DNA from: Candidatus Niyogibacteria bacterium
Lineage (GTDB): Bacteria > Patescibacteriota > Minisyncoccia > HO2-45-28
Assembly: GCA_016432485.1 (NCBI GenBank)
Contig: CP066691.1
Location: forward strand, 77,466 to 141,465
Length of the DNA: 64,000 nt
Direction: 5' to 3'
In this document: piece after piece, positions 1,549 to 9,031 of the stretch
Numbering within the stretch: position 1 is the stretch's first letter
How the letters are laid out: every line of letters begins with the position of its first letter
Made by a program: the position numbers and the translations under genes
Notes under the pieces: model-generated
What the model saw: only the letters and a program-made list of their open reading frames with translations
The model's database searches: none
Told to the model about the DNA's origin: nothing

Positions 1549-1584
1549 TTGACTTGCACCATATTGATGCATTATGATTATAGC
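1549..1584 (+). promoter_or_regulatory. Putative sigma70-like promoter (TTGACT 1549-1554, ~17-18 nt spacer, TtATGAT/TATAGC -10 candidates) feeding a leaderless start at 1585
   Basis: Hexamers read directly. The ORF-track start at 1549 is a TTG that coincides with the -35 box. Confidence 0.3.
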
Positions 1585-1893
1585 ATGTCATTAGAAGAAA
1601 TATCGGGATACAAGGCAATAAAGCGTCTCGCCGTGGAGCGACCAGATTGGCTTCCCATCGTTCGGGAGTGTCTCGCTTTTACGAAAGAATATAAAGCCGA
1701 TTTTGCAGGAGCTTGGATATACCAGCGCTTGCAAGAAAAAGGTGGGCCAAGATTTTCAAATCTCCGCCTACTCGTTAGTTTCGGTATCTTGAAAAAAGAG
1801 GGCACTTCCCGCGCCGGCCGCCGCGCCTATTATTCGTTTGTTGATCCAGTGGGCGTTGAAGAAGCATTAAAAGAACTTTCTCAAGAAATATGA
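1585..1893 (+). CDS. Hypothetical small protein (about 102 aa), first gene of the RM/OLD operon
   Basis: ORF MSLEEISGYKAIKRLAVERPDWLPIVRECLAF…; the first ATG after the putative promoter; its stop overlaps the next start (ATATGA at 1888-1893). No family recognised. Confidence 0.45.
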   Translation: MSLEEISGYKAIKRLAVERPDWLPIVRECLAFTKEYKADFAGAWIYQRLQEKGGPRFSNLRLLVSFGILKKEGTSRAGRRAYYSFVDPVGVEEALKELSQEI

Positions 1894-2377: not shown

Positions 2378-4642
2378 ATGGAACTATCAGACAACGAAAA
2401 AAGAGATATCGTGAAATATTTGGAAGCGGGAAAACCGCTTCCGGAAAAGTATCGTTTTTTGCTTTTTGATGATGATAGAGAAGTTGAGTTACTTTGGAAT
2501 GGTAAGACAAATGAGGTAACGAATGTTGTCTTACCTTTTCAAGTTATTGAGCAAATAGACGAGCCGAGGAGCGACGCAAAATTTGGCAATCAAAATTCTC
2601 TTTTTGACACCTCGGGACGACAAATAACCGGATGGACGAATAAATTGATTTGGGGAGACAATAAATTGATTCTCTCATCTCTTAAAAATGGACCGCTTCG
2701 CAAAGAAATAGAAGCGCAGGGCGGTTTGAAATTGATTTATATTGACCCGCCGTTTGATGTTGGGGCGGACTTTTCTATGGATATAAAAATTGGTGATGGT
2801 GAGGATGAAGAAAGTTTTACAAAAAAACCGTCAGTGATAGAAGAAATTGCCTATCGCGACACTTGGGGCAAAGGTGCGGATAGTTTTATTGCGATGATTT
2901 ATGAGCGATTGAAACTCATGCACGATTTGCTTGCCGCAGACGGAAGTATTTATGTGCATTGTGACTGGAGAGTGAATAGCTATATGAGGTTAGTTTTAGA
3001 TGAGATTTTTGGTAAGGATAACTTTAGAAATGAAATTGTTTGGAAAAGAACATACTCAACAAAAGCACAGAGTGTTGGTTATGGTAAAACGCATGAGCTT
3101 ATTTTGTTTTACGCAAAAAGTGAGACTACTAAATTAAAGCAACTTTACCAAAAACCAGCTGATGATTATGTAGATAAATATTTTAATAAAACAGATGAGA
3201 ATGGCAAAAAGTACCAATCTTTGAGTTTGACTCAGCAAGGACAGGGTCCCGCTAGATTTTTTGGGGACAGACTAATTGAACCACCCAATGGGATGCATTG
3301 GATTTGGGGGCAAGACCGAATAACAAAAGCTTTTCAGGAAGGTAGAATAGTTTTTACAAAAAACAATTTTCCGAGACTTAAGAAATATCTTGAAGAATGG
3401 AATGAACAAGGTCGTCCGGTTGATGGACTTTGGGTTGATGATGAAGTTGGACCATTAAACTCCTGGCACGGGGAATCGCTGGATTACCCTACACAAAAAC
3501 CGGAGTCAATGCTTGGGCGTATAATTCAATCCTCTTCAAATGAAGGCGATCTTGTTGCTGATTTCTTCTGCGGTTCGGGGACAACGCTTGCGGTTGCTGA
3601 AAAACTCGGCAGAAAATGGATTGGCTCTGACTTGGGGAAATTTGGCATACATACATCACGAAAGAGAATGATTGGCGTACAGCGAGAATTGAAAAAGGAA
3701 AGCAAAAATTTCAGGGCTTTTGAAATCTTAAATGTTGGTAGATACGAAAGAGAAAATTTCCTCGCGACAAATAACGACTTGCGAGCGGAAGAGAAATCAA
3801 AACAAGCCGATAGAAAAGAAAAAGAATTTGTAAAACTCATTCTCTCTGCGTACAAAGCGGAGCCGGTGGAATCTTTTGTAAATGTTATCGGCAAGAAAAG
3901 AGATCGACTTGTGGCGGTGGGACCCATCGATACTCCGGTTTCCTCAAAACTGGTGCAGGACATTGTAAACGAGTGTATAGAAAAAGGAATAACTAAAATT
4001 GATGTGCTTGGTTTCGATTATGAAATGGGGCTTGATTTTTCCCAGTATAAAGATCAGGGCATTGATATTGCTTTCAGAATAATTCCGAGAGAAGTTTTTG
4101 ACAGAAAAGCGGTAGAAAAGGGTCAAGTGAAGTTTTATGATGTGGCGTTTATTGAAGCGAAGCCGATTATCAAAGGGAGGGGAAGCGAAAAAGAAATTTC
4201 TATCGAACTTACCGACTTTTCCGTTTTCTACAATCAAGATGATTCCGGTGAAATAGCCGAGGCGCTTCGGCCCGGTGGTTCTAAGGTTGTAGTGGAAGAT
4301 GGACAAGTGGTGAAAATCACTAAAGACAAGAAAACTGAAGAAATTTCAAAAGAAGTTTTGACTAAAAAATGGAGCGACTGGATTGATTATTGGGCGGTGG
4401 ATTTTGATTTTGCAAGCAGAAAAGAAATCATCAAAATAATTGAGGATGGTGAAGAAAAAGAAGTTTGGACTGGCGACTATATTTTCGACAACGAATGGCA
4501 GAGTTTCCGCACGAAAAAGAACAGAAATCTTGACCTCGTCACTCCTCCCAAGGTGGCTACAAAAGGCAAGCATAAAATAGCCGTAAAGGTCGTGGATATT
4601 TTCGGAAATGACACGACAAAGGTAATAGAAGTAAATATATGA
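2378..4642 (+). CDS. mod: Type III-like restriction-modification methyltransferase (Mod; beta-class N6-adenine/N4-cytosine MTase)
   Basis: Motif IV LIYIDPPFDVGADF comes before motif I DFFCGSGTT, and FRNEIVWKR is present. This order is the beta-class arrangement used by Type III Mod. Start taken at MELSDNEKRD (ATG 2378) after the stop of the upstream ORF. Confidence 0.8.
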   Translation: MELSDNEKRDIVKYLEAGKPLPEKYRFLLFDDDREVELLWNGKTNEVTNVVLPFQVIEQIDEPRSDAKFGNQNSLFDTSGRQITGWTNKLIWGDNKLILSSLKNGPLRKEIEAQGGLKLIYIDPPFDVGADFSMDIKIGDGEDEESFTKKPSVIEEIAYRDTWGKGADSFIAMIYERLKLMHDLLAADGSIYVHCDWRVNSYMRLVLDEIFGKDNFRNEIVWKRTYSTKAQSVGYGKTHELILFYAKSETTKLKQLYQKPADDYVDKYFNKTDENGKKYQSLSLTQQGQGPARFFGDRLIEPPNGMHWIWGQDRITKAFQEGRIVFTKNNFPRLKKYLEEWNEQGRPVDGLWVDDEVGPLNSWHGESLDYPTQKPESMLGRIIQSSSNEGDLVADFFCGSGTTLAVAEKLGRKWIGSDLGKFGIHTSRKRMIGVQRELKKESKNFRAFEILNVGRYERENFLATNNDLRAEEKSKQADRKEKEFVKLILSAYKAEPVESFVNVIGKKRDRLVAVGPIDTPVSSKLVQDIVNECIEKGITKIDVLGFDYEMGLDFSQYKDQGIDIAFRIIPREVFDRKAVEKGQVKFYDVAFIEAKPIIKGRGSEKEISIELTDFSVFYNQDDSGEIAEALRPGGSKVVVEDGQVVKITKDKKTEEISKEVLTKKWSDWIDYWAVDFDFASRKEIIKIIEDGEEKEVWTGDYIFDNEWQSFRTKKNRNLDLVTPPKVATKGKHKIAVKVVDIFGNDTTKVIEVNI

Positions 4643-6288
4643 AGTTTATAAAAAAAATAGAGATTCATTCTTTTAGGTCATGTGAAAATATGCACATTGA
4701 AAATTGTGAAAATTTTAATGTTTTTTTGGGTCTCAACAATTCTGGCAAATCAAATATTCTACGTGCTTTAAATTTATTTTTTAACGGAGAAATTGAGCCG
4801 GGTTTCAAATTTCTTTTGGAAAGAGATGGTAATTTCCCTCCCAAGAAACGTAAAAAGAAAGAAGTTGAAATTAGTATTACTTTTGATACAAGAGAATTAA
4901 AAAAATTACCCCAGTTTAAAAAGGCTGTTGGAAACATTGTTGATGATTATGTAATTACAAAAGTATGGGGTTACCAAGGTTTTTCTGAGGGCCTAATTGT
5001 TGCTAAAGGAAAAGACCAGCTTGATAAGGCCCAAAACCTTCTAAAATTTATAAGATTTCGATATTTAGTTGCTCATCGAGACCCTGCAAAAATCATTATA
5101 GAATCAGAAAAGCGTATACGAAAGGAACTACTTAGAAGGTTTAATTCACGTATTAAAAAGTCGCAAATTTCTGGAGGACAAAATTCCATTACCGAGGTTT
5201 TAAAAATTCTCGAAGATGCTTCAAAGTCATTAATTGACCCAATCGCACTACCCGTTAAAAGCTTATCACCGGAAGTTAAAGACCTTATCCTTTTAACACC
5301 TAAAACATTTCAAGATCTAGTTATTTCCTTGGGATACGCCGTTCAATTAAAAAATGAAAAAATGATTTCCGAAGAATTACAGGGGTCAGGCTTCCAAAGC
5401 CATTTAATGTTTAGAGTTTTGTACTTTGCGGATACGGCGTATAGTTTAGATTTTGGTTGGAAAGGTATAACAATTTGGGCTATCGAAGAACCGGAATCTT
5501 TTCTCCATAAAAATTTAGAGATAGAATTAGGGAAATTTTTTAATGAAATTTCTGAAAAATTTCGTATACAAATTTTTTGCACGACACATAGTGATGTTTT
5601 CCCTCAATATGCAAAAATGTCTTATTTAGCAAAATTTGATGATCTAAAATACTCTCAACTACAATACGATGTATCAAAAAAAATTATTCATGAGTCCTCA
5701 AAATTGGGTATTTCTTCGTTTGTTCATACACTACATTTTCAACAGGGAGTGCCACTTGTTTTAGTAGAGGGTAAAACTGACAAGAAAGTTGTGAATAAAA
5801 CCTTAGAACTTTTAGGTGATGCTGAATTTTTCAGTATTTTTGATAATTTTGATTTGAATCTAGACTCTGGTGGTGTTTCTCAATTATTAAAATATTTACA
5901 AAACAACAAGTTAGTTATTGATAGTAGACAAAAACCCTTTTATATTATTTTAGATTGGAATGAAGAGAATAAAACAGTTAATCAATTTAAAAAGATTAGT
6001 AAAAATATTTTTCCATATAAGTTTGACGAGTCAAAATGTAATCCAAATCTTGACAATAGTTTTAGTGGTATAGAAAGATATTTAACAACAGACTTTATTA
6101 AGAATCCTGCAACAGAAAAGACATTTTCGTATCAAACTGATTCTGTAAATTCTTCTATTTTGTCAATGAAAAAGAGAGTATTGGACGATAATAAAGTTTT
6201 TTTAGCTGATTATTTTGTGAAAAATGCTAGTAAATTGGATTTAAAATTTTTAGAACCAGAAATTAAGAAAGCTTTACACTTAAGTTAA
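4639..6288 (+). CDS. OLD-family ATP-dependent endonuclease-like protein (N-terminal ABC-type ATPase, C-terminal Toprim-like domain)
   Basis: Walker A GLNNSGKSNILRAL, Walker B/D-loop ITIWAIEEPESFLH, H-loop CTTHSD, and a C-terminal PLVLVEGKTDKKVV Toprim-like EGxxD motif. Its ATG overlaps the mod stop (ATATGA). Very AT-rich. Confidence 0.6.
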   Translation: MKFIKKIEIHSFRSCENMHIENCENFNVFLGLNNSGKSNILRALNLFFNGEIEPGFKFLLERDGNFPPKKRKKKEVEISITFDTRELKKLPQFKKAVGNIVDDYVITKVWGYQGFSEGLIVAKGKDQLDKAQNLLKFIRFRYLVAHRDPAKIIIESEKRIRKELLRRFNSRIKKSQISGGQNSITEVLKILEDASKSLIDPIALPVKSLSPEVKDLILLTPKTFQDLVISLGYAVQLKNEKMISEELQGSGFQSHLMFRVLYFADTAYSLDFGWKGITIWAIEEPESFLHKNLEIELGKFFNEISEKFRIQIFCTTHSDVFPQYAKMSYLAKFDDLKYSQLQYDVSKKIIHESSKLGISSFVHTLHFQQGVPLVLVEGKTDKKVVNKTLELLGDAEFFSIFDNFDLNLDSGGVSQLLKYLQNNKLVIDSRQKPFYIILDWNEENKTVNQFKKISKNIFPYKFDESKCNPNLDNSFSGIERYLTTDFIKNPATEKTFSYQTDSVNSSILSMKKRVLDDNKVFLADYFVKNASKLDLKFLEPEIKKALHLS

Positions 6289-6295
6289 AAAGTTT

Positions 6296-8989
6296 ATGGC
6301 ACTACATAAAGACTTTCCAAAAAACCCATACGCGATACTTGACCCGAATATTCGGTGGTTTCCTGCTGACGAAGATTTGCGGGAAAAAGGAGCTATTCAA
6401 AAACTTTTACCTCCTCTTGTCGCGGGTTTGCGGGAAAAAGTAAAAGAATGGCGAGATAAAAATTACGAGGGGGCAAGTAATACTTCTAAATCACTTTTGA
6501 ACTGGTGGTTCAAGGAGGAACATATTTTATATGACCAACACGGAGTATCTTCTCATTTCAAATACTATTTCGCGCAAAGAGAAGCGCTGGAAACAGTCGT
6601 ATGGCTTTATGAGGTGGCGAAAGTAAAAGATAAATACGACCTCATTCGTTACAACTCTACCGGCGTATTAAGTCCGCAAATGTTTACTGAAGAGTGGCTT
6701 CGCTTTGTGATAAAAATGGCGACTGGTGCGGGTAAGACCAAAGTAATGAGTCTAGTTGTCGCATGGGCGTATTTTCATAAAAAGTATGAGGAAGGTTCAA
6801 ATTTGGCAAAGAACTTTCTTTTAATAACGCCGAATGTCATTGTTTTTGAAAGAATAAAGAATGATTTTGAAGGATTGAAGATATTTTTTAGCGATCCTGT
6901 TTTGCCGGATAACGGCTATCACGGACAAAACTGGCAGGATGATTTTCAGATGACTCTGCATTTACAGGATGATTTGCGCAATGTTTCTGACACTGGAAAT
7001 ATATTTTTGACTAACATCCACAGAGTTTTTGAGGGTGATGTGCGCGAAGCGAGTGCAGAAGATGAGGACACTTCTCGATACTTCTTAGGCGATAAACCAG
7101 TCACAAAAACAAGCGACTCTACTGTGGATTTGGGGATGATAGTAAGAGATATCGACGAGCTTATTGTAATCAATGATGAAGCTCACCATTTGCACGATGA
7201 TAAATCAGCTTGGGTTAAATCAATTACCGACATAGACAATCGGCTTAAACAGAAAGGCGCGGGGCTATCTTTACAGCTTGACTTTACGGCTACACCAAAA
7301 AAGAACGATGGCTCCATTTTTGTGCAAACAATTTCCGACTATCCGCTTGTTGAGGCAATTCACCAAAGAGTTGTTAAAAATCCGGTTGTGCCGGACGCGG
7401 CAAGCCGAGGAAAACTGAAAGAAAATCAAAACACACTATTTAGCGAGAGATACCGAGATTATATAAATCTTGGTATTGAAGAATGGAAAAAAACATACGA
7501 AGTATTAAAACCGATGGGTAAAAAATCCATTCTTTTTATTATGACAGACGATACAAGGAATTGTGATGAGGTGGCGGAGTATATTGAAACAAGTTTTAAA
7601 GAGTTGAAAGGGGCAGTTTTGACTATACACACAAACAAGAGCGGAGAAATTTCTGAAAGTGTGTCCGGTAAAAGTAAAGAGGAATTGGATGTGCTTCGCA
7701 AACAAGCGAATGAAATTGATAGTTGGGAAAGCCCGTTCAAAGTAATTATTTCCGTAATGATGTTGAAAGAGGGTTGGGATGTAAAAAATGTAACGACAAT
7801 CGTCGGGCTACGACCTTTCGCAGCCGATTCAAAAATTCTGCCCGAACAAACTCTCGGACGAGGACTCCGTAGGATGTTTTTTGGCAGAGATGATGTTGAG
7901 GAATATGTGAGTGTTGTCGGAACTCCCGCTTTTATGGACTTTGTTGAATCAATCAAGGGCGAGGGCGTTATTCTTGAAAAGAAAGCGATGGGAACGGGAG
8001 CCAAGCCGATAGCTCCGATGGTTATTGAGGTTGATAAGGATAATCCGAAAAAGGACATTGAGAAGCTTGATATTGAGATTCCGGTGATGTCCCCTAGAAT
8101 TCAGAGGGAGTATAAAAACCTAGCCGAGCTGGATGTTTCCAAATTTGGGAATAAAAAGGTCAAAGTAAAAACATTCTCCGAAGAAGAAAAACGAGAAATC
8201 GTGTTTAAGGATGTTGTTGATGAAAAAATCCATCACACAACGATACTTTCTGGCGACATTGAACCTGATTATCAAAGCGTTATCGGATTTTTTGCGCAGG
8301 CAATAATGCGAGAACTACGGCTTTTTGGTTGCTACGATATTTTATTCGGCAAGGTAAGAGAGTTTGTGCAAAATAATATGTTTGACAGTCCCGTGAATTT
8401 ATCAGACCTCAATACTCTGCGAAATTTATCCGAGGTGGAGTATATACGGCTTATAAAAGATTCTTTCAAGAAAGCCATTAACGATCTTACAGTCGAAGAC
8501 AAAGGAGACACAGAGATAAAGAACTACATCAAAATTAGCGAAGCACGTCCTTTTGTCGTTAATGATAAATCGTATTTAATACCCAAAAAGTCTGTTTTCA
8601 ATAAGATTGTTGGCGATAGCGATTTTGAGCTAGTATTTTCTGATTTTCTCGAAAATTGTGATGATGCGATTTCTTTCGCAAAGAATTTTCAAAATAAAGA
8701 AGCGAGCGCGCTTAGAATTGAGTATAAAAATTCGGAAGGATTTATTGCTACCTACTACCCCGATTTCTTTGTTAAGAAAGATGAAAAAACGGTTTATATT
8801 ATTGAAACGAAAGGACGAGAAGAAGATGACGACAAGCTAAAATTTGAAAGACTGCAAAAGTGGTGTGAGGATGTAAATGATCGACAAAATCGGGTCGTCT
8901 ATAAAGCACTTTATATCAAACAAGAAGAATGGAAAAAAGATAAATTCAAGAATTTTGATGAGGTTGTTAGGGTGTTTGATTTAAAATAA
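6296..8989 (+). CDS. res: Type III restriction enzyme Res subunit (SF2 DEAH helicase fused to a C-terminal PD-(D/E)XK nuclease)
   Basis: Walker A MATGAGKTKV, DEAH box VINDEAHHL, motif VI QTLGRGLRR, and a C-terminal nuclease motif YYPDFFVKKDEKTVYIIETKGRE. Confidence 0.85.
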   Translation: MALHKDFPKNPYAILDPNIRWFPADEDLREKGAIQKLLPPLVAGLREKVKEWRDKNYEGASNTSKSLLNWWFKEEHILYDQHGVSSHFKYYFAQREALETVVWLYEVAKVKDKYDLIRYNSTGVLSPQMFTEEWLRFVIKMATGAGKTKVMSLVVAWAYFHKKYEEGSNLAKNFLLITPNVIVFERIKNDFEGLKIFFSDPVLPDNGYHGQNWQDDFQMTLHLQDDLRNVSDTGNIFLTNIHRVFEGDVREASAEDEDTSRYFLGDKPVTKTSDSTVDLGMIVRDIDELIVINDEAHHLHDDKSAWVKSITDIDNRLKQKGAGLSLQLDFTATPKKNDGSIFVQTISDYPLVEAIHQRVVKNPVVPDAASRGKLKENQNTLFSERYRDYINLGIEEWKKTYEVLKPMGKKSILFIMTDDTRNCDEVAEYIETSFKELKGAVLTIHTNKSGEISESVSGKSKEELDVLRKQANEIDSWESPFKVIISVMMLKEGWDVKNVTTIVGLRPFAADSKILPEQTLGRGLRRMFFGRDDVEEYVSVVGTPAFMDFVESIKGEGVILEKKAMGTGAKPIAPMVIEVDKDNPKKDIEKLDIEIPVMSPRIQREYKNLAELDVSKFGNKKVKVKTFSEEEKREIVFKDVVDEKIHHTTILSGDIEPDYQSVIGFFAQAIMRELRLFGCYDILFGKVREFVQNNMFDSPVNLSDLNTLRNLSEVEYIRLIKDSFKKAINDLTVEDKGDTEIKNYIKISEARPFVVNDKSYLIPKKSVFNKIVGDSDFELVFSDFLENCDDAISFAKNFQNKEASALRIEYKNSEGFIATYYPDFFVKKDEKTVYIIETKGREEDDDKLKFERLQKWCEDVNDRQNRVVYKALYIKQEEWKKDKFKNFDEVVRVFDLK

Positions 8990-9031
8990 TTTATGGAACC
9001 CTGGCCAACAAAAAATTAAAAAAATAAATTT

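What the first reader, a model, noticed from the sequence alone, without database searches (positions are those of the whole stretch)
4639..6288. Embedded ATPase has full ABC-ATPase motif set plus a C-terminal Toprim-like EGxxD motif (OLD family); very AT-rich
The protein has Walker A (GLNNSGKSN), Walker B/D-loop (IWAIEEPESF) and H-loop (TTHSD), then VLVEGKTDKKVV. This matches the domain logic of P2 Old and Gabija GajA. Known OLD classes pair with UvrD (class 2/Gabija) or with retrons. Pairing with Type III Mod and Res would be a different context.
Basis: partly seen in the sequence, partly recalled or inferred. Interest (0 to 1): 0.7.

Follow-up and report, generated by a model that had tools for sequence, protein, structure and literature searches.

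The report
OLD-type nuclease embedded in restriction operon
The gene between the methylase and the nuclease of this Type III restriction system encodes an OLD-family ATP-driven nuclease, probably an anti-phage backup weapon, and it sits in a slot that related operons fill with dozens of different defence-like genes or leave empty.

Summary
ORF 4639-6288 (549 aa) carries every quoted motif. It is an ABC ATPase fused to a Toprim domain.

Evidence for OLD-family identity:
- The acidic metal ligands E377, D381, D439 and E479 are invariant or conservatively kept in 119 homologues.
- The ATPase motif pattern mirrors Thermus OLD.

A dedicated OLD/Type III pairing is not supported.
- Distant relatives (~30% identity) are mostly solitary genes in defence-island-like neighbourhoods.
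- Close relatives sit beside four different kinds of methylase/nuclease pairs.
- I compared 66 operons whose Res is 70-97% identical to this one. In 16, mod and res abut. In 50, they hold 0.5-2.35 kb of co-directional cargo from at least 38 protein clusters. These include Schlafen-like, NYN, Fic, HEPN, DUF3800, fused PARIS and three other OLD-like lineages.
- Cargo identity is randomised once Res differs by about 3-7%.

Best reading: a self-contained, single-gene OLD nuclease riding in a fast-turnover cargo slot and co-transcribed with the restriction genes. A PrrC/PARIS-style guard role is plausible but untested. Embedding is already described for Type I, BREX, DISARM and Hma loci. I found no description for Type III.

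The parts
2378..4642 (+). Type III Mod methyltransferase. The ORF is open from TTG 2327; the probable start is ATG 2378, giving 754 aa. Motif IV DPPF lies at nt 2735-2758 and motif I FxGxG (FFCGSGTT) at 3563-3586.
   Evidence: Pfam N6_N4_Mtase 4.3e-44. PADLOC MTase_III 7.6e-113. DNA homology to related operons begins at about 2357-2390. Motif positions.
3045..3480 (+). Variable central segment of Mod, presumably the target-recognition domain. It has no DNA homology to otherwise 80-89% identical mod genes.
   Evidence: The blastn HSPs of the window against 30 or more related loci all break at about 3021-3047 and resume at about 3478-3539. A variable central third is known for Type III Mod (PMC1976455).
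4639..4642 (+). ATGA overlap of the OLD start codon with the Mod stop codon (translational-coupling geometry). This is also the left boundary of the cargo slot.
   Evidence: Sequence. DNA homology to related operons ends at 4640-4644. The same ATGA overlap joins Mod to Res in most of the 16 empty operons and joins Mod to the first cargo gene in 25 of 50 filled ones.
4639..6288 (+). Embedded OLD-family protein, 549 aa: an N-terminal ABC ATPase (about residues 1-355) plus a C-terminal Toprim and helical region (about residues 356-549).
   Evidence: AlphaFold2 model with pLDDT 92.3 and pTM 0.89. Top Foldseek PDB hits are GajA 8u7i 1.7e-16, retron Eco8 effector 9lpa and Ts OLD 6p74.
4729..4755 (+). 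Walker A / P-loop GLNNSGKSN (K37).
   Evidence: G31, N33, G36, K37, S38 and N39 are invariant in 119/119 homologues.
5083..5265 (+). Two long helices (residues 149-177 and 184-209) inserted in the ATPase. This is the candidate dimerisation insert.
   Evidence: Secondary structure of the model. By analogy with the dimerisation domain inserted in the Ts OLD ATPase (PMC7049728). Inference; not superposed.
5377..5400 (+). Signature-like motif LQGSGFQS, located about 30 residues upstream of Walker B.
   Evidence: G249, G251 and Q253 are invariant, and S250 is kept in 105/119. Its position relative to Walker B is read from the sequence. Assigning it as the ABC signature is inference.
5473..5508 (+). 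Walker B and D-loop region IWAIEEPESFLH (E283, E284, H290).
   Evidence: W280, E283, E284, P285 and E286 are 119/119, and H290 is 117/119. The pattern matches Ts OLD, where E276 replaces the Walker B Asp and H283 lies in the D-loop seven residues later.
5569..5595 (+). H-loop QIFCTTHSD (H317).
   Evidence: Q311 and H317 are 119/119. H317 corresponds to Ts OLD H310.
5758..5793 (+). First Toprim motif VLVEGKTDKKVV. E377 is the metal A ligand equivalent and D381 the metal B ligand equivalent.
   Evidence: E377 is E in 107 and D in 12 of 119. G378 and D381 are 119/119. Ts OLD uses E377 and D381, and Bp OLD uses E400 and E404.
5944..5970 (+). Second Toprim motif IILDWNEEN. D439-W440-N441 occupies the place of the canonical DxD.
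   Evidence: D439 is 119/119 and W440 is 111/119. Position 441 is D in 53, E in 33, N in 26 and S in 5; the window protein has N.
6061..6081 (+). Third motif FSGIERY. G477-x-E479 occupies the place of the [S/T]xE metal B ligands.
   Evidence: G477 and E479 are 119/119. Ts OLD has S478/E480 and Bp OLD has T506/E508.
6190..6210 (+). C-terminal helical region containing K519. K519 is a candidate equivalent of the catalytic Lys/Arg (Bp K562, Ts R487).
6289..6295 (+). A 7-nt spacer between the OLD stop and the Res ATG. This is the right boundary of the cargo slot.
   Evidence: Sequence. DNA homology to related operons resumes at 6281-6296.
6296..8989 (+). Type III Res subunit, 897 aa. It has an SF2 helicase core (MATGAGKT at nt 6716-6739; DEAH box NDEAHH at 7172-7189) and a C-terminal PD-(D/E)xK motif (YYPDFF at 8753-8770; IIETKG at 8798-8815).
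   Evidence: Pfam ResIII 1.1e-17. PADLOC REase_III 7.8e-20. NCBIfam BPTD_3080-family restriction endonuclease 5e-80, below its cutoff. Motifs read. 570 relatives were confirmed among 600 candidate stretches in metagenomes; the best 80 are 70-97% identical.

Best explanation
ORF 4639-6288 encodes a divergent OLD-family enzyme. An ABC-ATPase head acts as sensor or switch, and it controls a two-metal Toprim nuclease. The gene works as a self-contained, single-gene (Class-1-type) anti-phage module, most likely a second-line or abortive effector. It does not work as a subunit of the Type III enzyme. It sits in a cargo slot at the mod|res junction of a widespread, horizontally mobile Type III R-M operon. 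There it is co-transcribed and probably translationally coupled with Mod, so it is inherited and expressed together with restriction.

Shown here: the domain identity, the conservation of catalytic residues, the operon geometry, the variability of the slot, and the non-R-M contexts of relatives.

Inferred: ATPase and nuclease activity, the defence role, the trigger and the substrate. The trigger could be a phage anti-restriction or anti-RecBCD protein, or aberrant or replicating phage DNA. The substrate could be DNA nicking or degradation as in Ts, Bp and Vc OLD and GajA, or tRNA cleavage as in AriB and P2 OLD.
For: (1) ABC ATPase. AAA_15 scores 1.2e-21. Walker A, E283/E284, H290 and H317 are invariant or nearly so in 119 homologues. 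The motif pattern parallels Ts OLD K34/E276/H283/H310.

(3) Full-length Foldseek top hits are GajA, the retron Eco8 effector and Ts OLD.

(4) No conserved partner. Relatives at about 30% identity are solitary. The genes downstream of P0002 and P0008 are unrelated to each other.

(5) The slot is generic. Of 66 related operons, 16 are empty and 50 carry at least 38 cargo clusters. 81 of 82 cargo ORFs are co-directional, and 25 of 50 first cargo genes overlap the Mod stop by ATGA. Cargo includes PADLOC Old at 1.3e-29, fused AriAB at 2.5e-33, PDC-S05, Schlafen/AlbA_2, NYN, Fic, HEPN, DUF3800, DUF4145 and Bro-N.

(6) Turnover is rapid. Cargo is the same in 7/7 pairs with Res at least 99.5% identical, in 5/11 pairs at 97-99.5%, and in 7/139 pairs at 93-97%.

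(7) Composition is foreign. The gene has GC 0.298 against 0.39 for Mod and Res, and cargo GC is lower than its flanks in 43 of 50 loci.

(8) Neighbours of 38 distant relatives are enriched for R-M and toxin-antitoxin or defence families: N6_Mtase, Methylase_S, Eco57I, ResIII, NTP_transf_2/HepT and Fic.

(9) Literature. Single-gene ABC-TOPRIM HEC-04, found embedded in Hma, defends in a way that depends on Walker A and the Toprim metal site. OLD-ABC/TOPRIM modules have been proposed as backup effectors embedded in BREX.
Against: There is no experimental datum for this protein or its subfamily. The organism is an uncultured CPR bacterium (Candidatus Niyogibacteria).

The second Asp of the DxD motif is Asn in this protein and is variable across the family. 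The Ser/Thr metal B ligand is an invariant Gly. The active site therefore differs from characterised OLDs, and activity is not guaranteed.

All sequence-based Toprim models fail on the C-terminus.

Close relatives (47-72% identity) lie next to a methylase/nuclease pair in 4 of 5 contexts examined. That is denser than expected for a purely independent gene and leaves room for functional coupling with R-M enzymes.

The tight ATGA coupling to Mod could also reflect stoichiometric co-assembly.
Confidence: 0.6

Rival explanations
1. PrrC/PARIS-style guard. The OLD protein is held inactive by, or monitors, the Mod2Res complex. It is unleashed when a phage anti-restriction factor disables or mimics the substrate of the R-M enzyme. 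The physical neighbourhood would then reflect a functional, possibly physical, coupling.
For: The gene is embedded inside the operon with an ATGA overlap to Mod. Close relatives lie beside four different methylase/nuclease pairs: a Type III operon carrying an additional DUF3800 gene, EcoRI-like MTase with GmrSD-HNH, a small N6_N4 MTase with DUF6996/6997, and this one. A fused PARIS AriAB occupies the same slot in L133. There is precedent: PrrC in EcoprrI is activated by T4 Stp (PMC12707154), and PARIS and Gabija are activated by Ocr.
Against: The R-M partners of close relatives are unrelated to each other, so a specific protein-protein interface with Mod or Res is unlikely to be conserved. Most distant relatives have no R-M neighbour. 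The same slot holds dozens of unrelated proteins or none. [quoted passage not shown] A trigger of the PARIS kind (sensing the phage protein directly) needs no coupling to the R-M enzyme.
Confidence: 0.22
2. Integral third subunit. OLD cooperates with the Res SF2 helicase as GajA does with the GajB helicase, forming a new composite 'Type III + OLD' restriction complex, i.e. a new OLD class.
For: OLD classes are defined by synteny with a partner. Res is a helicase-nuclease encoded immediately downstream.
Against: Res keeps its own intact PD-(D/E)xK motif and helicase motifs. Res proteins 95% identical work with no cargo or with unrelated cargo. None of the 80 related operons carries this OLD subfamily. 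Res is SF2, not a UvrD-like SF1 helicase.
Confidence: 0.05
3. Not a defence gene. It could be a selfish or addiction cassette, or a DNA-repair or recombination ATPase of the RecF/SbcC kind that happens to be inserted here. Alternatively it could be an inactive relic.
For: GC is low and turnover is rapid. RecF and Rad50 are the best sequence-level PDB hits for the N-terminus. The second metal A position is Asn441 rather than Asp.
Against: The full ORF is intact. 25 positions are invariant across 119 homologues at 26-72% identity, which indicates purifying selection on both active sites. The fused OLD-type Toprim and the defence-rich neighbourhoods argue for conflict biology. Asn at position 441 is shared by 26 of 119 homologues. 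No integrase or transposase lies in the slot.
Confidence: 0.08

Closest known systems
Class 1 OLD nucleases (P2 Old, Thermus scotoductus OLD, Vibrio cholerae OLD)
   Same: A single polypeptide with an N-terminal ABC ATPase and a C-terminal Toprim, and no dedicated partner gene. The ATPase motif pattern is the same as Ts OLD: Glu in place of the Walker B Asp, His in the D-loop seven residues later, an H-loop His and an Arg at the Q-loop position. E377/D381 even share numbering with Ts OLD.
   Different: Only about 15% identity to Ts OLD in the structural alignment. Pfam and PADLOC Toprim/Old models do not detect the C-terminus. There is a C-terminal helical region, and the best structural match is the Class 2 Bp OLD CTR, whereas Ts OLD lacks that domain. 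An invariant GSGxQ sits at the signature position, whereas the signature is reported as degenerate in Class 1. DxD is relaxed to D-W-[D/E/N], and [S/T]xE becomes GxE. The gene is embedded in an R-M operon.
Gabija GajA (Class 2 OLD)
   Same: It is the best full-length structural match (8u7i, Foldseek 1.7e-16). Several PADLOC GajA models hit, and some span into the Toprim region. The Toprim-plus-helical CTR resembles Class 2.
   Different: No UvrD-like gajB lies downstream here or in any relative examined.
PARIS AriA/AriB (Class 4 OLD) and fused AriAB
   Same: It combines an ABC ATPase with a Toprim. The top PADLOC hit is AriA at 2.1e-21. AriB appears among structural and profile hits. PARIS is a paradigm for sensing anti-restriction proteins and is often linked to methylation-based defence. 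A fused AriAB sits in the same mod|res slot in L133.
   Different: The window protein does not match the AriB or AriAB models over its Toprim domain. The trigger and the tRNA target are unknown here.
PrrC in the EcoprrI Type Ic R-M locus, and the 'guilt-by-embedding' systems such as HEC-04 (Payne et al. 2024)
   Same: An ABC-ATPase-based effector gene is nested inside an R-M or methylation-based defence operon. HEC-04 is likewise a single ABC-TOPRIM protein whose defence needs Walker A and the Toprim metal site.
   Different: PrrC carries an anticodon-nuclease domain, not a Toprim, and resides in Type I loci. Payne et al. surveyed Hma, BREX, DISARM and Type I but not Type III. HEC-04 is smaller; its mutated Toprim residues are E319, D375 and D377.
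OLD-ABC/TOPRIM 'backup effectors' embedded in BREX and BREX-related loci (NAR 2026, PMC12839542)
   Same: The theme is the same: OLD-type ABC plus Toprim nucleases sit inside or beside methylation-based defence operons and are interpreted as suicidal second-line effectors.
   Different: The host system here is a classical Mod/Res Type III R-M. It is not BREX or a DUF499/DUF1156 'BR' system, and no such domains are present.

Membership tests
OLD family nuclease (general) | N-terminal ABC-type ATPase with Walker A Lys, a Walker B acidic pair and an H-loop His | tested here: met
   AAA_15 1.2e-21 and SMC_N/AAA_23 hits. K37, E283, E284 and H317 are invariant in 119/119. The ABC fold matches GajA, Eco8 effector, Ts OLD, SMC and Rad50.
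OLD family nuclease (general) | C-terminal Toprim fold | tested here: met
OLD family nuclease (general) | Metal A ligands: a Glu plus DxD (Ts E377/D431/D433; Bp E400/D455/D457) | tested here: inconclusive
   E377 (E 107, D 12) and D439 (119/119) are present. The third ligand position, 441, is D/E in 86, N in 26 and other residues in 7 of 119. It is Asn in the window protein. Residue equivalence is inferred from motif order, not from a superposition.
OLD family nuclease (general) | Metal B ligands: an acidic residue four positions after the Glu, plus [S/T]xE (Ts D381/S478/E480) | tested here: inconclusive
   D381 and E479 are invariant, but the Ser/Thr position is an invariant Gly (G477).
OLD family nuclease (general) | ATP hydrolysis and metal-dependent nuclease activity | not testable with these tools
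   Biochemistry is required.
Class 1 OLD | Single isolated gene without a conserved partner | tested here: met
   Relatives at about 30% identity are solitary. Neighbours of close relatives differ from one another.
Class 1 OLD | Toprim without the Class 2 C-terminal helical domain (as in Ts OLD) | tested here: not met
   About 70 residues of helices follow the Toprim core. The best match is the Class 2 Bp OLD CTR, with 148 residues aligned against 132 for Ts OLD.
Class 2 OLD (Gabija GajA) | [quoted passage not shown] | tested here: not met
   The downstream gene is the Type III Res, an SF2 ResIII helicase. No UvrD-like gene lies in any related locus examined.
Class 3 OLD (retron effector) | Adjacent reverse transcriptase and msr/msd ncRNA | tested here: not met
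   The flanking genes are Mod and Res. NCBIfam retron_eff_Eco8 scores only 49 bits against a cutoff of 250. No ncRNA search was done.
Class 4 OLD (PARIS) | Separate AriA ATPase and AriB (DUF4435-type Toprim), or the fused AriAB | tested here: not met
   AriA models hit the ATPase only. The C-terminal domain gives no AriB or AriAB hit in PADLOC and only E=0.13 to AriB in the PDB profile search.
Type III restriction-modification system (the host operon) | Mod (a beta-class N6/N4 MTase with a variable TRD) followed by Res (an SF2 helicase with a C-terminal PD-(D/E)xK nuclease) | tested here: met
   PF01555 and PADLOC MTase_III 7.6e-113; PF04851 and PADLOC REase_III. Motifs DPPF, FxGxG, GAGKT, DEAH and PD...ExK are present. 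The TRD is variable. Enzymatic behaviour was not tested.
PrrC-like R-M-embedded guard | Effector gene nested inside an R-M operon | tested here: met
   There is an ATGA overlap with Mod and 7 nt to Res.
PrrC-like R-M-embedded guard | Effector kept latent by physical association with the R-M enzyme and released by an anti-restriction factor | not testable with these tools
   Co-purification and phage assays are needed. The comparative data (variable partners) argue against a specific interface.

The most novel reading that the evidence does not exclude
The mod|res junction of this widespread Type III R-M family may be a dedicated, translationally coupled 'plug-in' site. Interchangeable latent effectors would be installed there, including OLD-type nucleases, fused PARIS, Schlafen-like, NYN, HEPN, Fic and many unknown proteins. 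They would be functionally subordinated to the restriction complex, expressed in fixed ratio with it and fired when restriction is evaded or inhibited. Type III R-M would then be a general chassis for two-layer immunity in small-genome CPR and groundwater bacteria. The cargo clusters with no Pfam hit, three of which also lack any PADLOC hit, would be new defence genes.
Probability: 0.25. Interest if true: 0.7.

Novelty: new variant of a known kind. Interest (0 to 1): 0.48.

Why it matters
It adds a deeply divergent OLD subfamily that current Pfam and PADLOC Toprim models miss. This subfamily combines Class-1 synteny with a Class-2-like C-terminal region and a relaxed metal-binding motif. That is useful for defining what is truly essential in OLD catalysis.

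The wider result is the slot. In the related Type III operons examined here, the junction between mod and res is a fast-turnover slot for defence-like genes. In 66 related operons, 76% are occupied, by at least 38 protein clusters. That extends 'guilt by embedding' from Type I, BREX, DISARM and Hma to Type III systems. It also gives a ready list of candidate new anti-phage genes in CPR and groundwater bacteria, whose immunity is poorly known. Finally, it offers a natural experiment for asking whether embedded effectors are merely co-inherited or actually guard the restriction enzyme.

Tried and rejected
1. Sequence-model detection of the Toprim domain. Pfam on the full protein and on the isolated C-terminus gave only sub-threshold DUF3226. 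PADLOC on the C-terminus gave only mad4 at E=0.014. phmmer against PDB hit 6p74 only over the Walker B region. I therefore moved to structure prediction.

2. Full-length fold search. It is dominated by the ATPase, so it cannot by itself prove the Toprim fold. I modelled and searched the C-terminal domain separately.

3. A conserved partner gene. The ORFs downstream of P0002 and P0008 are unrelated to each other and have no informative family hit. Rejected.

4. A specific OLD/Type III association. Among 38 GTDB relatives, only L027 (Mod/Res-like genes downstream) and L034 (EcoRI-like MTase with GmrSD-HNH) showed R-M neighbours with my targeted queries. The unbiased neighbour scan showed mixed R-M and toxin-antitoxin families at low frequency.

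5. Phage origin. Viral contigs hold only 22-30% identical relatives, mostly matching the ATPase only.

6. Promoter and terminator scans. Counts are not above the shuffled expectation, so they are not informative about internal promoters or terminators.

7. BREX-related 'Type-1 BR' identity of the host operon. Rejected, because no DUF499 ATPase or DUF1156 MTase is present.

8. [quoted passage not shown] The only extra gene reported is a helicase-like ATPase 5' of mod in m4C systems. Absence from this library is not proof that it has never been described.

Full report
**1. What is at the coordinates**

The window carries three tightly packed co-directional ORFs.
- A 754-771 aa methyltransferase. 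The ORF is open from 2327, and the probable ATG is at 2378.
- The 549 aa ORF 4639-6288.
- An 897 aa ORF at 6296-8989.

The first is a Type III Mod: Pfam N6_N4_Mtase 4.3e-44 and PADLOC MTase_III 7.6e-113, with DPPF and FxGxG motifs. The third is a Type III Res: Pfam ResIII, PADLOC REase_III, a GAGKT/DEAH helicase core and a C-terminal PD...ExK motif.

The middle gene's ATG overlaps the Mod stop codon (ATGA, 4639-4642). Its stop lies 7 nt before the Res ATG.

The gene is strongly AT-rich. Its GC is 0.298 and GC3 is 0.216. Mod has 0.394, Res 0.388 and the window 0.432. The R-M operon is therefore a low-GC island, and the middle gene is a still lower-GC inclusion within it.

The identical protein is on record as 'AAA family ATPase' from a Candidatus Niyogibacteria (CPR) MAG, on a contig of 837 kb.

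**2. Is it an OLD-family protein?**

The N-terminal two thirds are an ABC ATPase: AAA_15 1.2e-21, AAA_21, SMC_N and AAA_23, and PADLOC AriA, GajA, Old and retron ATPase-Toprim models at 1e-12 to 1e-21.

In an alignment of 119 homologues at 26-72% identity, the following are invariant: Walker A (G31, N33, G36, K37, S38, N39), a GSGxQ motif (G249, G251, Q253), W280, E283-E284-P285-E286, Q311 and H317. R141 and H290 are nearly invariant.

This pattern has Glu rather than Asp at Walker B, a His seven residues later in the D-loop, an H-loop His and an Arg at the Q-loop position. It is the pattern that Schiltz et al. describe for Thermus scotoductus OLD: K34, H140 (often Arg), E276, H283 and H310 (PMC7049728).

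No Pfam or PADLOC Toprim model recognises the C-terminal third. I therefore modelled the protein.
- The full-length AlphaFold2 model is confident (pLDDT 92.3, pTM 0.89). Its best Foldseek matches in the PDB are GajA, the retron Eco8 effector and Ts OLD.
- A sequence profile of the domain hits the Aquifex Toprim protein 1t6t (1.2e-3) and, weakly, AriB.

The catalytic constellation is present in the right order and is conserved.
- E377 is E in 107 and D in 12 of 119.
- D381 is 119/119.
- D439 is 119/119.
- E479 is 119/119.
- K519 is 118/119.
- R430 is 117/119.

For comparison, Ts OLD uses E377/D431/D433, D381/S478/E480 and R487. Bp OLD uses E400/D455/D457, E404/T506/E508 and K562.

There are two deviations. 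The second Asp of DxD is D/E in 86, N in 26 and other residues in 7 of 119, and it is Asn441 in the window protein. The Ser/Thr of [S/T]xE is an invariant Gly477.

The fold is a nuclease-type Toprim, and the acidic residues are conserved. I could not superpose coordinates, so the residue equivalences are inferred from motif order.

**3. Is Type III Mod/Res a specific partner?**

I looked at relatives in two directions.

*Relatives of the OLD protein.*
- The 60% identical protein from an Elusimicrobia MAG sits in the same kind of operon, Mod-OLD-DUF3800-Res. There Mod is 54.5% and Res 65% identical to the window's.
- A 70% identical protein lies between an EcoRI-like methylase and a GmrSD_N+HNH nuclease.
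- A 47% identical protein follows a small N6_N4 methylase and a DUF6996/6997 protein.
- A 72% identical protein is on short contigs flanked by unknown ORFs.
- Relatives at about 30% identity from Anaerolineales, Terriglobia, Bdellovibrionales, Actinomycetota and others are mostly solitary genes.
- An unbiased Pfam scan covered the two nearest genes on each side of 38 such relatives. The most frequent neighbour families were N6_Mtase, Methylase_S, Eco57I, AAA_21 and NTP_transf_2 (4 each), and ResIII and phage integrase (3 each). This is a defence-island flavour at low frequency, with no fixed partner.
- There is no UvrD-like or reverse-transcriptase neighbour anywhere.
- Viral contigs hold only remote relatives.

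*Relatives of the Res protein.* A metagenome scan confirmed 570 relatives among 600 candidate stretches. The best 80 have Res 70-97% identical to the window's. Sixty-six loci contain both Mod and Res.
- In 16, the two genes abut, mostly with a 4-nt ATGA-type overlap.
- In 50, they are separated by 0.5-2.35 kb carrying 1-4 ORFs.
- 81 of 82 of those ORFs are co-directional, and they fall into at least 38 sequence clusters.
- In 25 of the 50, the first cargo gene overlaps the Mod stop by ATGA, exactly as in the window. In 18 more it starts 6-13 nt later.

The cargo comprises the following:
- Schlafen/AlbA_2+HATPase_c_4 proteins in 9 loci.
- NYN-domain proteins in 8 loci.
- Three further ABC-ATPase lineages with EGxxD...DxD-type C-termini. 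One matches PADLOC Old at 1.3e-29, one matches Old at 2.5e-24, and one matches the fused PARIS AriAB at 2.5e-33.
- Fic/DOC, HEPN, DUF3800, DUF4145 and Bro-N proteins.
- The embedding-derived candidate PDC-S05.
- Many proteins with no family hit.

None of the 80 loci carries the window's own OLD subfamily.

DNA homology between the window and these loci stops at the Mod stop codon (4640-4644) and resumes at 6281-6296.

Cargo state is shared by 7 of 7 locus pairs whose Res proteins are at least 99.5% identical. It is shared by 5 of 11 pairs at 97-99.5% and by only 7 of 139 pairs at 93-97%, which is the background level.

The window's nearest Res relatives, at 95-95.5% identity, carry a Schlafen-like gene, nothing, another OLD-like gene, or a Bro-N gene.

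Cargo is lower in GC than the flanking mod and res in 43 of 50 loci.

**4. Interpretation**

The gene is a bona fide but deeply divergent OLD-family ABC-ATPase/Toprim protein.

By synteny it behaves as a Class 1 (single-gene) OLD. The four classes are defined by synteny (PMC12392090). Its C-terminal region resembles the Class 2 Toprim-plus-helical architecture more than that of Ts OLD.

Its position between mod and res does not reflect a dedicated OLD/Type III partnership. It reflects a rapidly exchanging cargo slot in a horizontally mobile Type III operon.

This is the Type III counterpart of a known phenomenon.
- PrrC lies inside the EcoprrI Type Ic locus (PMC12707154).
- Defence genes are embedded in Hma, BREX, DISARM and Type I loci. 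One is the experimentally validated single-gene ABC-TOPRIM HEC-04 (bioRxiv 10.1101/2024.01.29.577857).
- OLD-ABC/TOPRIM 'backup effectors' lie inside BREX loci (PMC12839542).

My searches of the held literature found no description of such a slot in Type III systems. This is absence of evidence only.

**5. Mechanism**

The most likely mechanism, at confidence 0.6, runs as follows. The ABC head, probably dimerising through the helical insert at residues 149-209, binds and hydrolyses ATP. It gates a two-metal Toprim nuclease. The protein acts on its own as a second-line or abortive effector. It is co-transcribed and probably translationally coupled with Mod, so that restriction and backup are inherited and expressed together.

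What triggers it, and what it cuts, are not determinable here. Characterised relatives nick or degrade DNA (Ts, Bp and Vc OLD, and GajA) or cleave tRNA (AriB; P2 OLD according to bioRxiv 10.64898/2026.07.10.737580). They are triggered by anti-restriction or anti-RecBCD proteins, or by phage replication intermediates.

The main rival, at 0.22, is a PrrC-like guard that is physically controlled by Mod2Res. The dense association of the close clade with methylase/nuclease pairs favours it. The diversity of those pairs and of the slot's cargo disfavours it.

A Gabija-like composite with the Res helicase is largely excluded. Res proteins 95% identical operate with no cargo or with unrelated cargo, and Res retains its own nuclease motif.

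**6. Verdict**

The OLD-family assignment is supported. 'A new OLD context defined by Type III pairing' is not supported as a specific partnership.

The finding is a new, divergent member of the OLD family in a previously undescribed variant of the embedding phenomenon. The Type III mod|res cargo slot is the more interesting result. It yields a list of unannotated candidate defence genes.

Noticed in passing
window 4639-6295, compared with loci L098-L177: The junction between mod and res of this Type III family is a hypervariable cargo slot. Of 66 related operons, 16 are empty and 50 carry 1-4 co-directional genes from at least 38 clusters. Cargo identity is randomised once Res has diverged by about 3-7% at the amino-acid level.
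   Followed up: yes
L113:2512-3780, L156:6109-6996, L172:6111-6998, L123:2564-3364, L147:3798-4454, L132:1259-1819, L150:2826-3431, L173:6439-6993: Cargo proteins in the same mod|res slot that have no Pfam hit. L113, L156 and L172 also have no PADLOC hit. By guilt-by-embedding they are candidate new defence genes.
   Followed up: partly
L133:5438-6997; L121:5146-7014; L105:5284-6996: Three other ABC-ATPase/Toprim lineages occupy the same slot. One matches fused PARIS AriAB at 2.5e-33, and two match PADLOC Old at 1.3e-29 and 2.5e-24. OLD-type effectors have therefore been captured repeatedly and independently by this operon.
   Followed up: partly
window 3045-3480: The central part of mod has no DNA similarity to mod genes that are otherwise 80-89% identical. 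This is the expected swapping of the target-recognition domain, and it implies many specificities within this R-M family.
   Followed up: partly
window about 2357 and about 9003: Homology to all related loci starts just before the Mod ATG and ends a few bases after the Res stop, and the flanks differ in every locus. The whole mod-cargo-res unit therefore appears to move between genomes as a compact module. No integrase or transposase is visible beside it in the window.
   Followed up: partly
window 1549-1893 and 1890-2369: Two small overlapping + strand ORFs (114 and 159 aa) lie immediately upstream of mod. They have no Pfam, NCBIfam or PADLOC hit, and they are not part of the conserved R-M module.
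   Followed up: no
L170:5123-6319 and 6325-9019: A Res with 89% DNA identity to the window's is preceded by a Fic/DOC gene and a housekeeping YceG gene. No mod lies within 6 kb upstream. It may be an orphaned res or a rearranged operon.
   Followed up: partly
L034:11931-15743 (minus strand) and L013:255-4176: The same unusual pair, an EcoRI-like methylase with a GmrSD_N+HNH nuclease, lies next to OLD-family members that are only about 27% and 70% identical to the window protein. In L034 the pair shows as fragmented hits. This is a second recurrent R-M partner type for the family.
   Followed up: no
L027:9965-18090: A distant (32%) OLD relative in a Terriglobia MAG sits immediately upstream of Mod-like and Res-like genes, in the order OLD-Mod-x-Res. 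This is a different placement relative to a Type III-like system.
   Followed up: no
window 4639-6288 (protein residues 4-47 and 373-445): There are weak similarities to the MADS system components MAD3 ATPase (NCBIfam 9e-5, N-terminus only) and mad4 (PADLOC 0.014, Toprim region). They hint that MADS contains a split OLD-like ATPase/Toprim pair.
   Followed up: no
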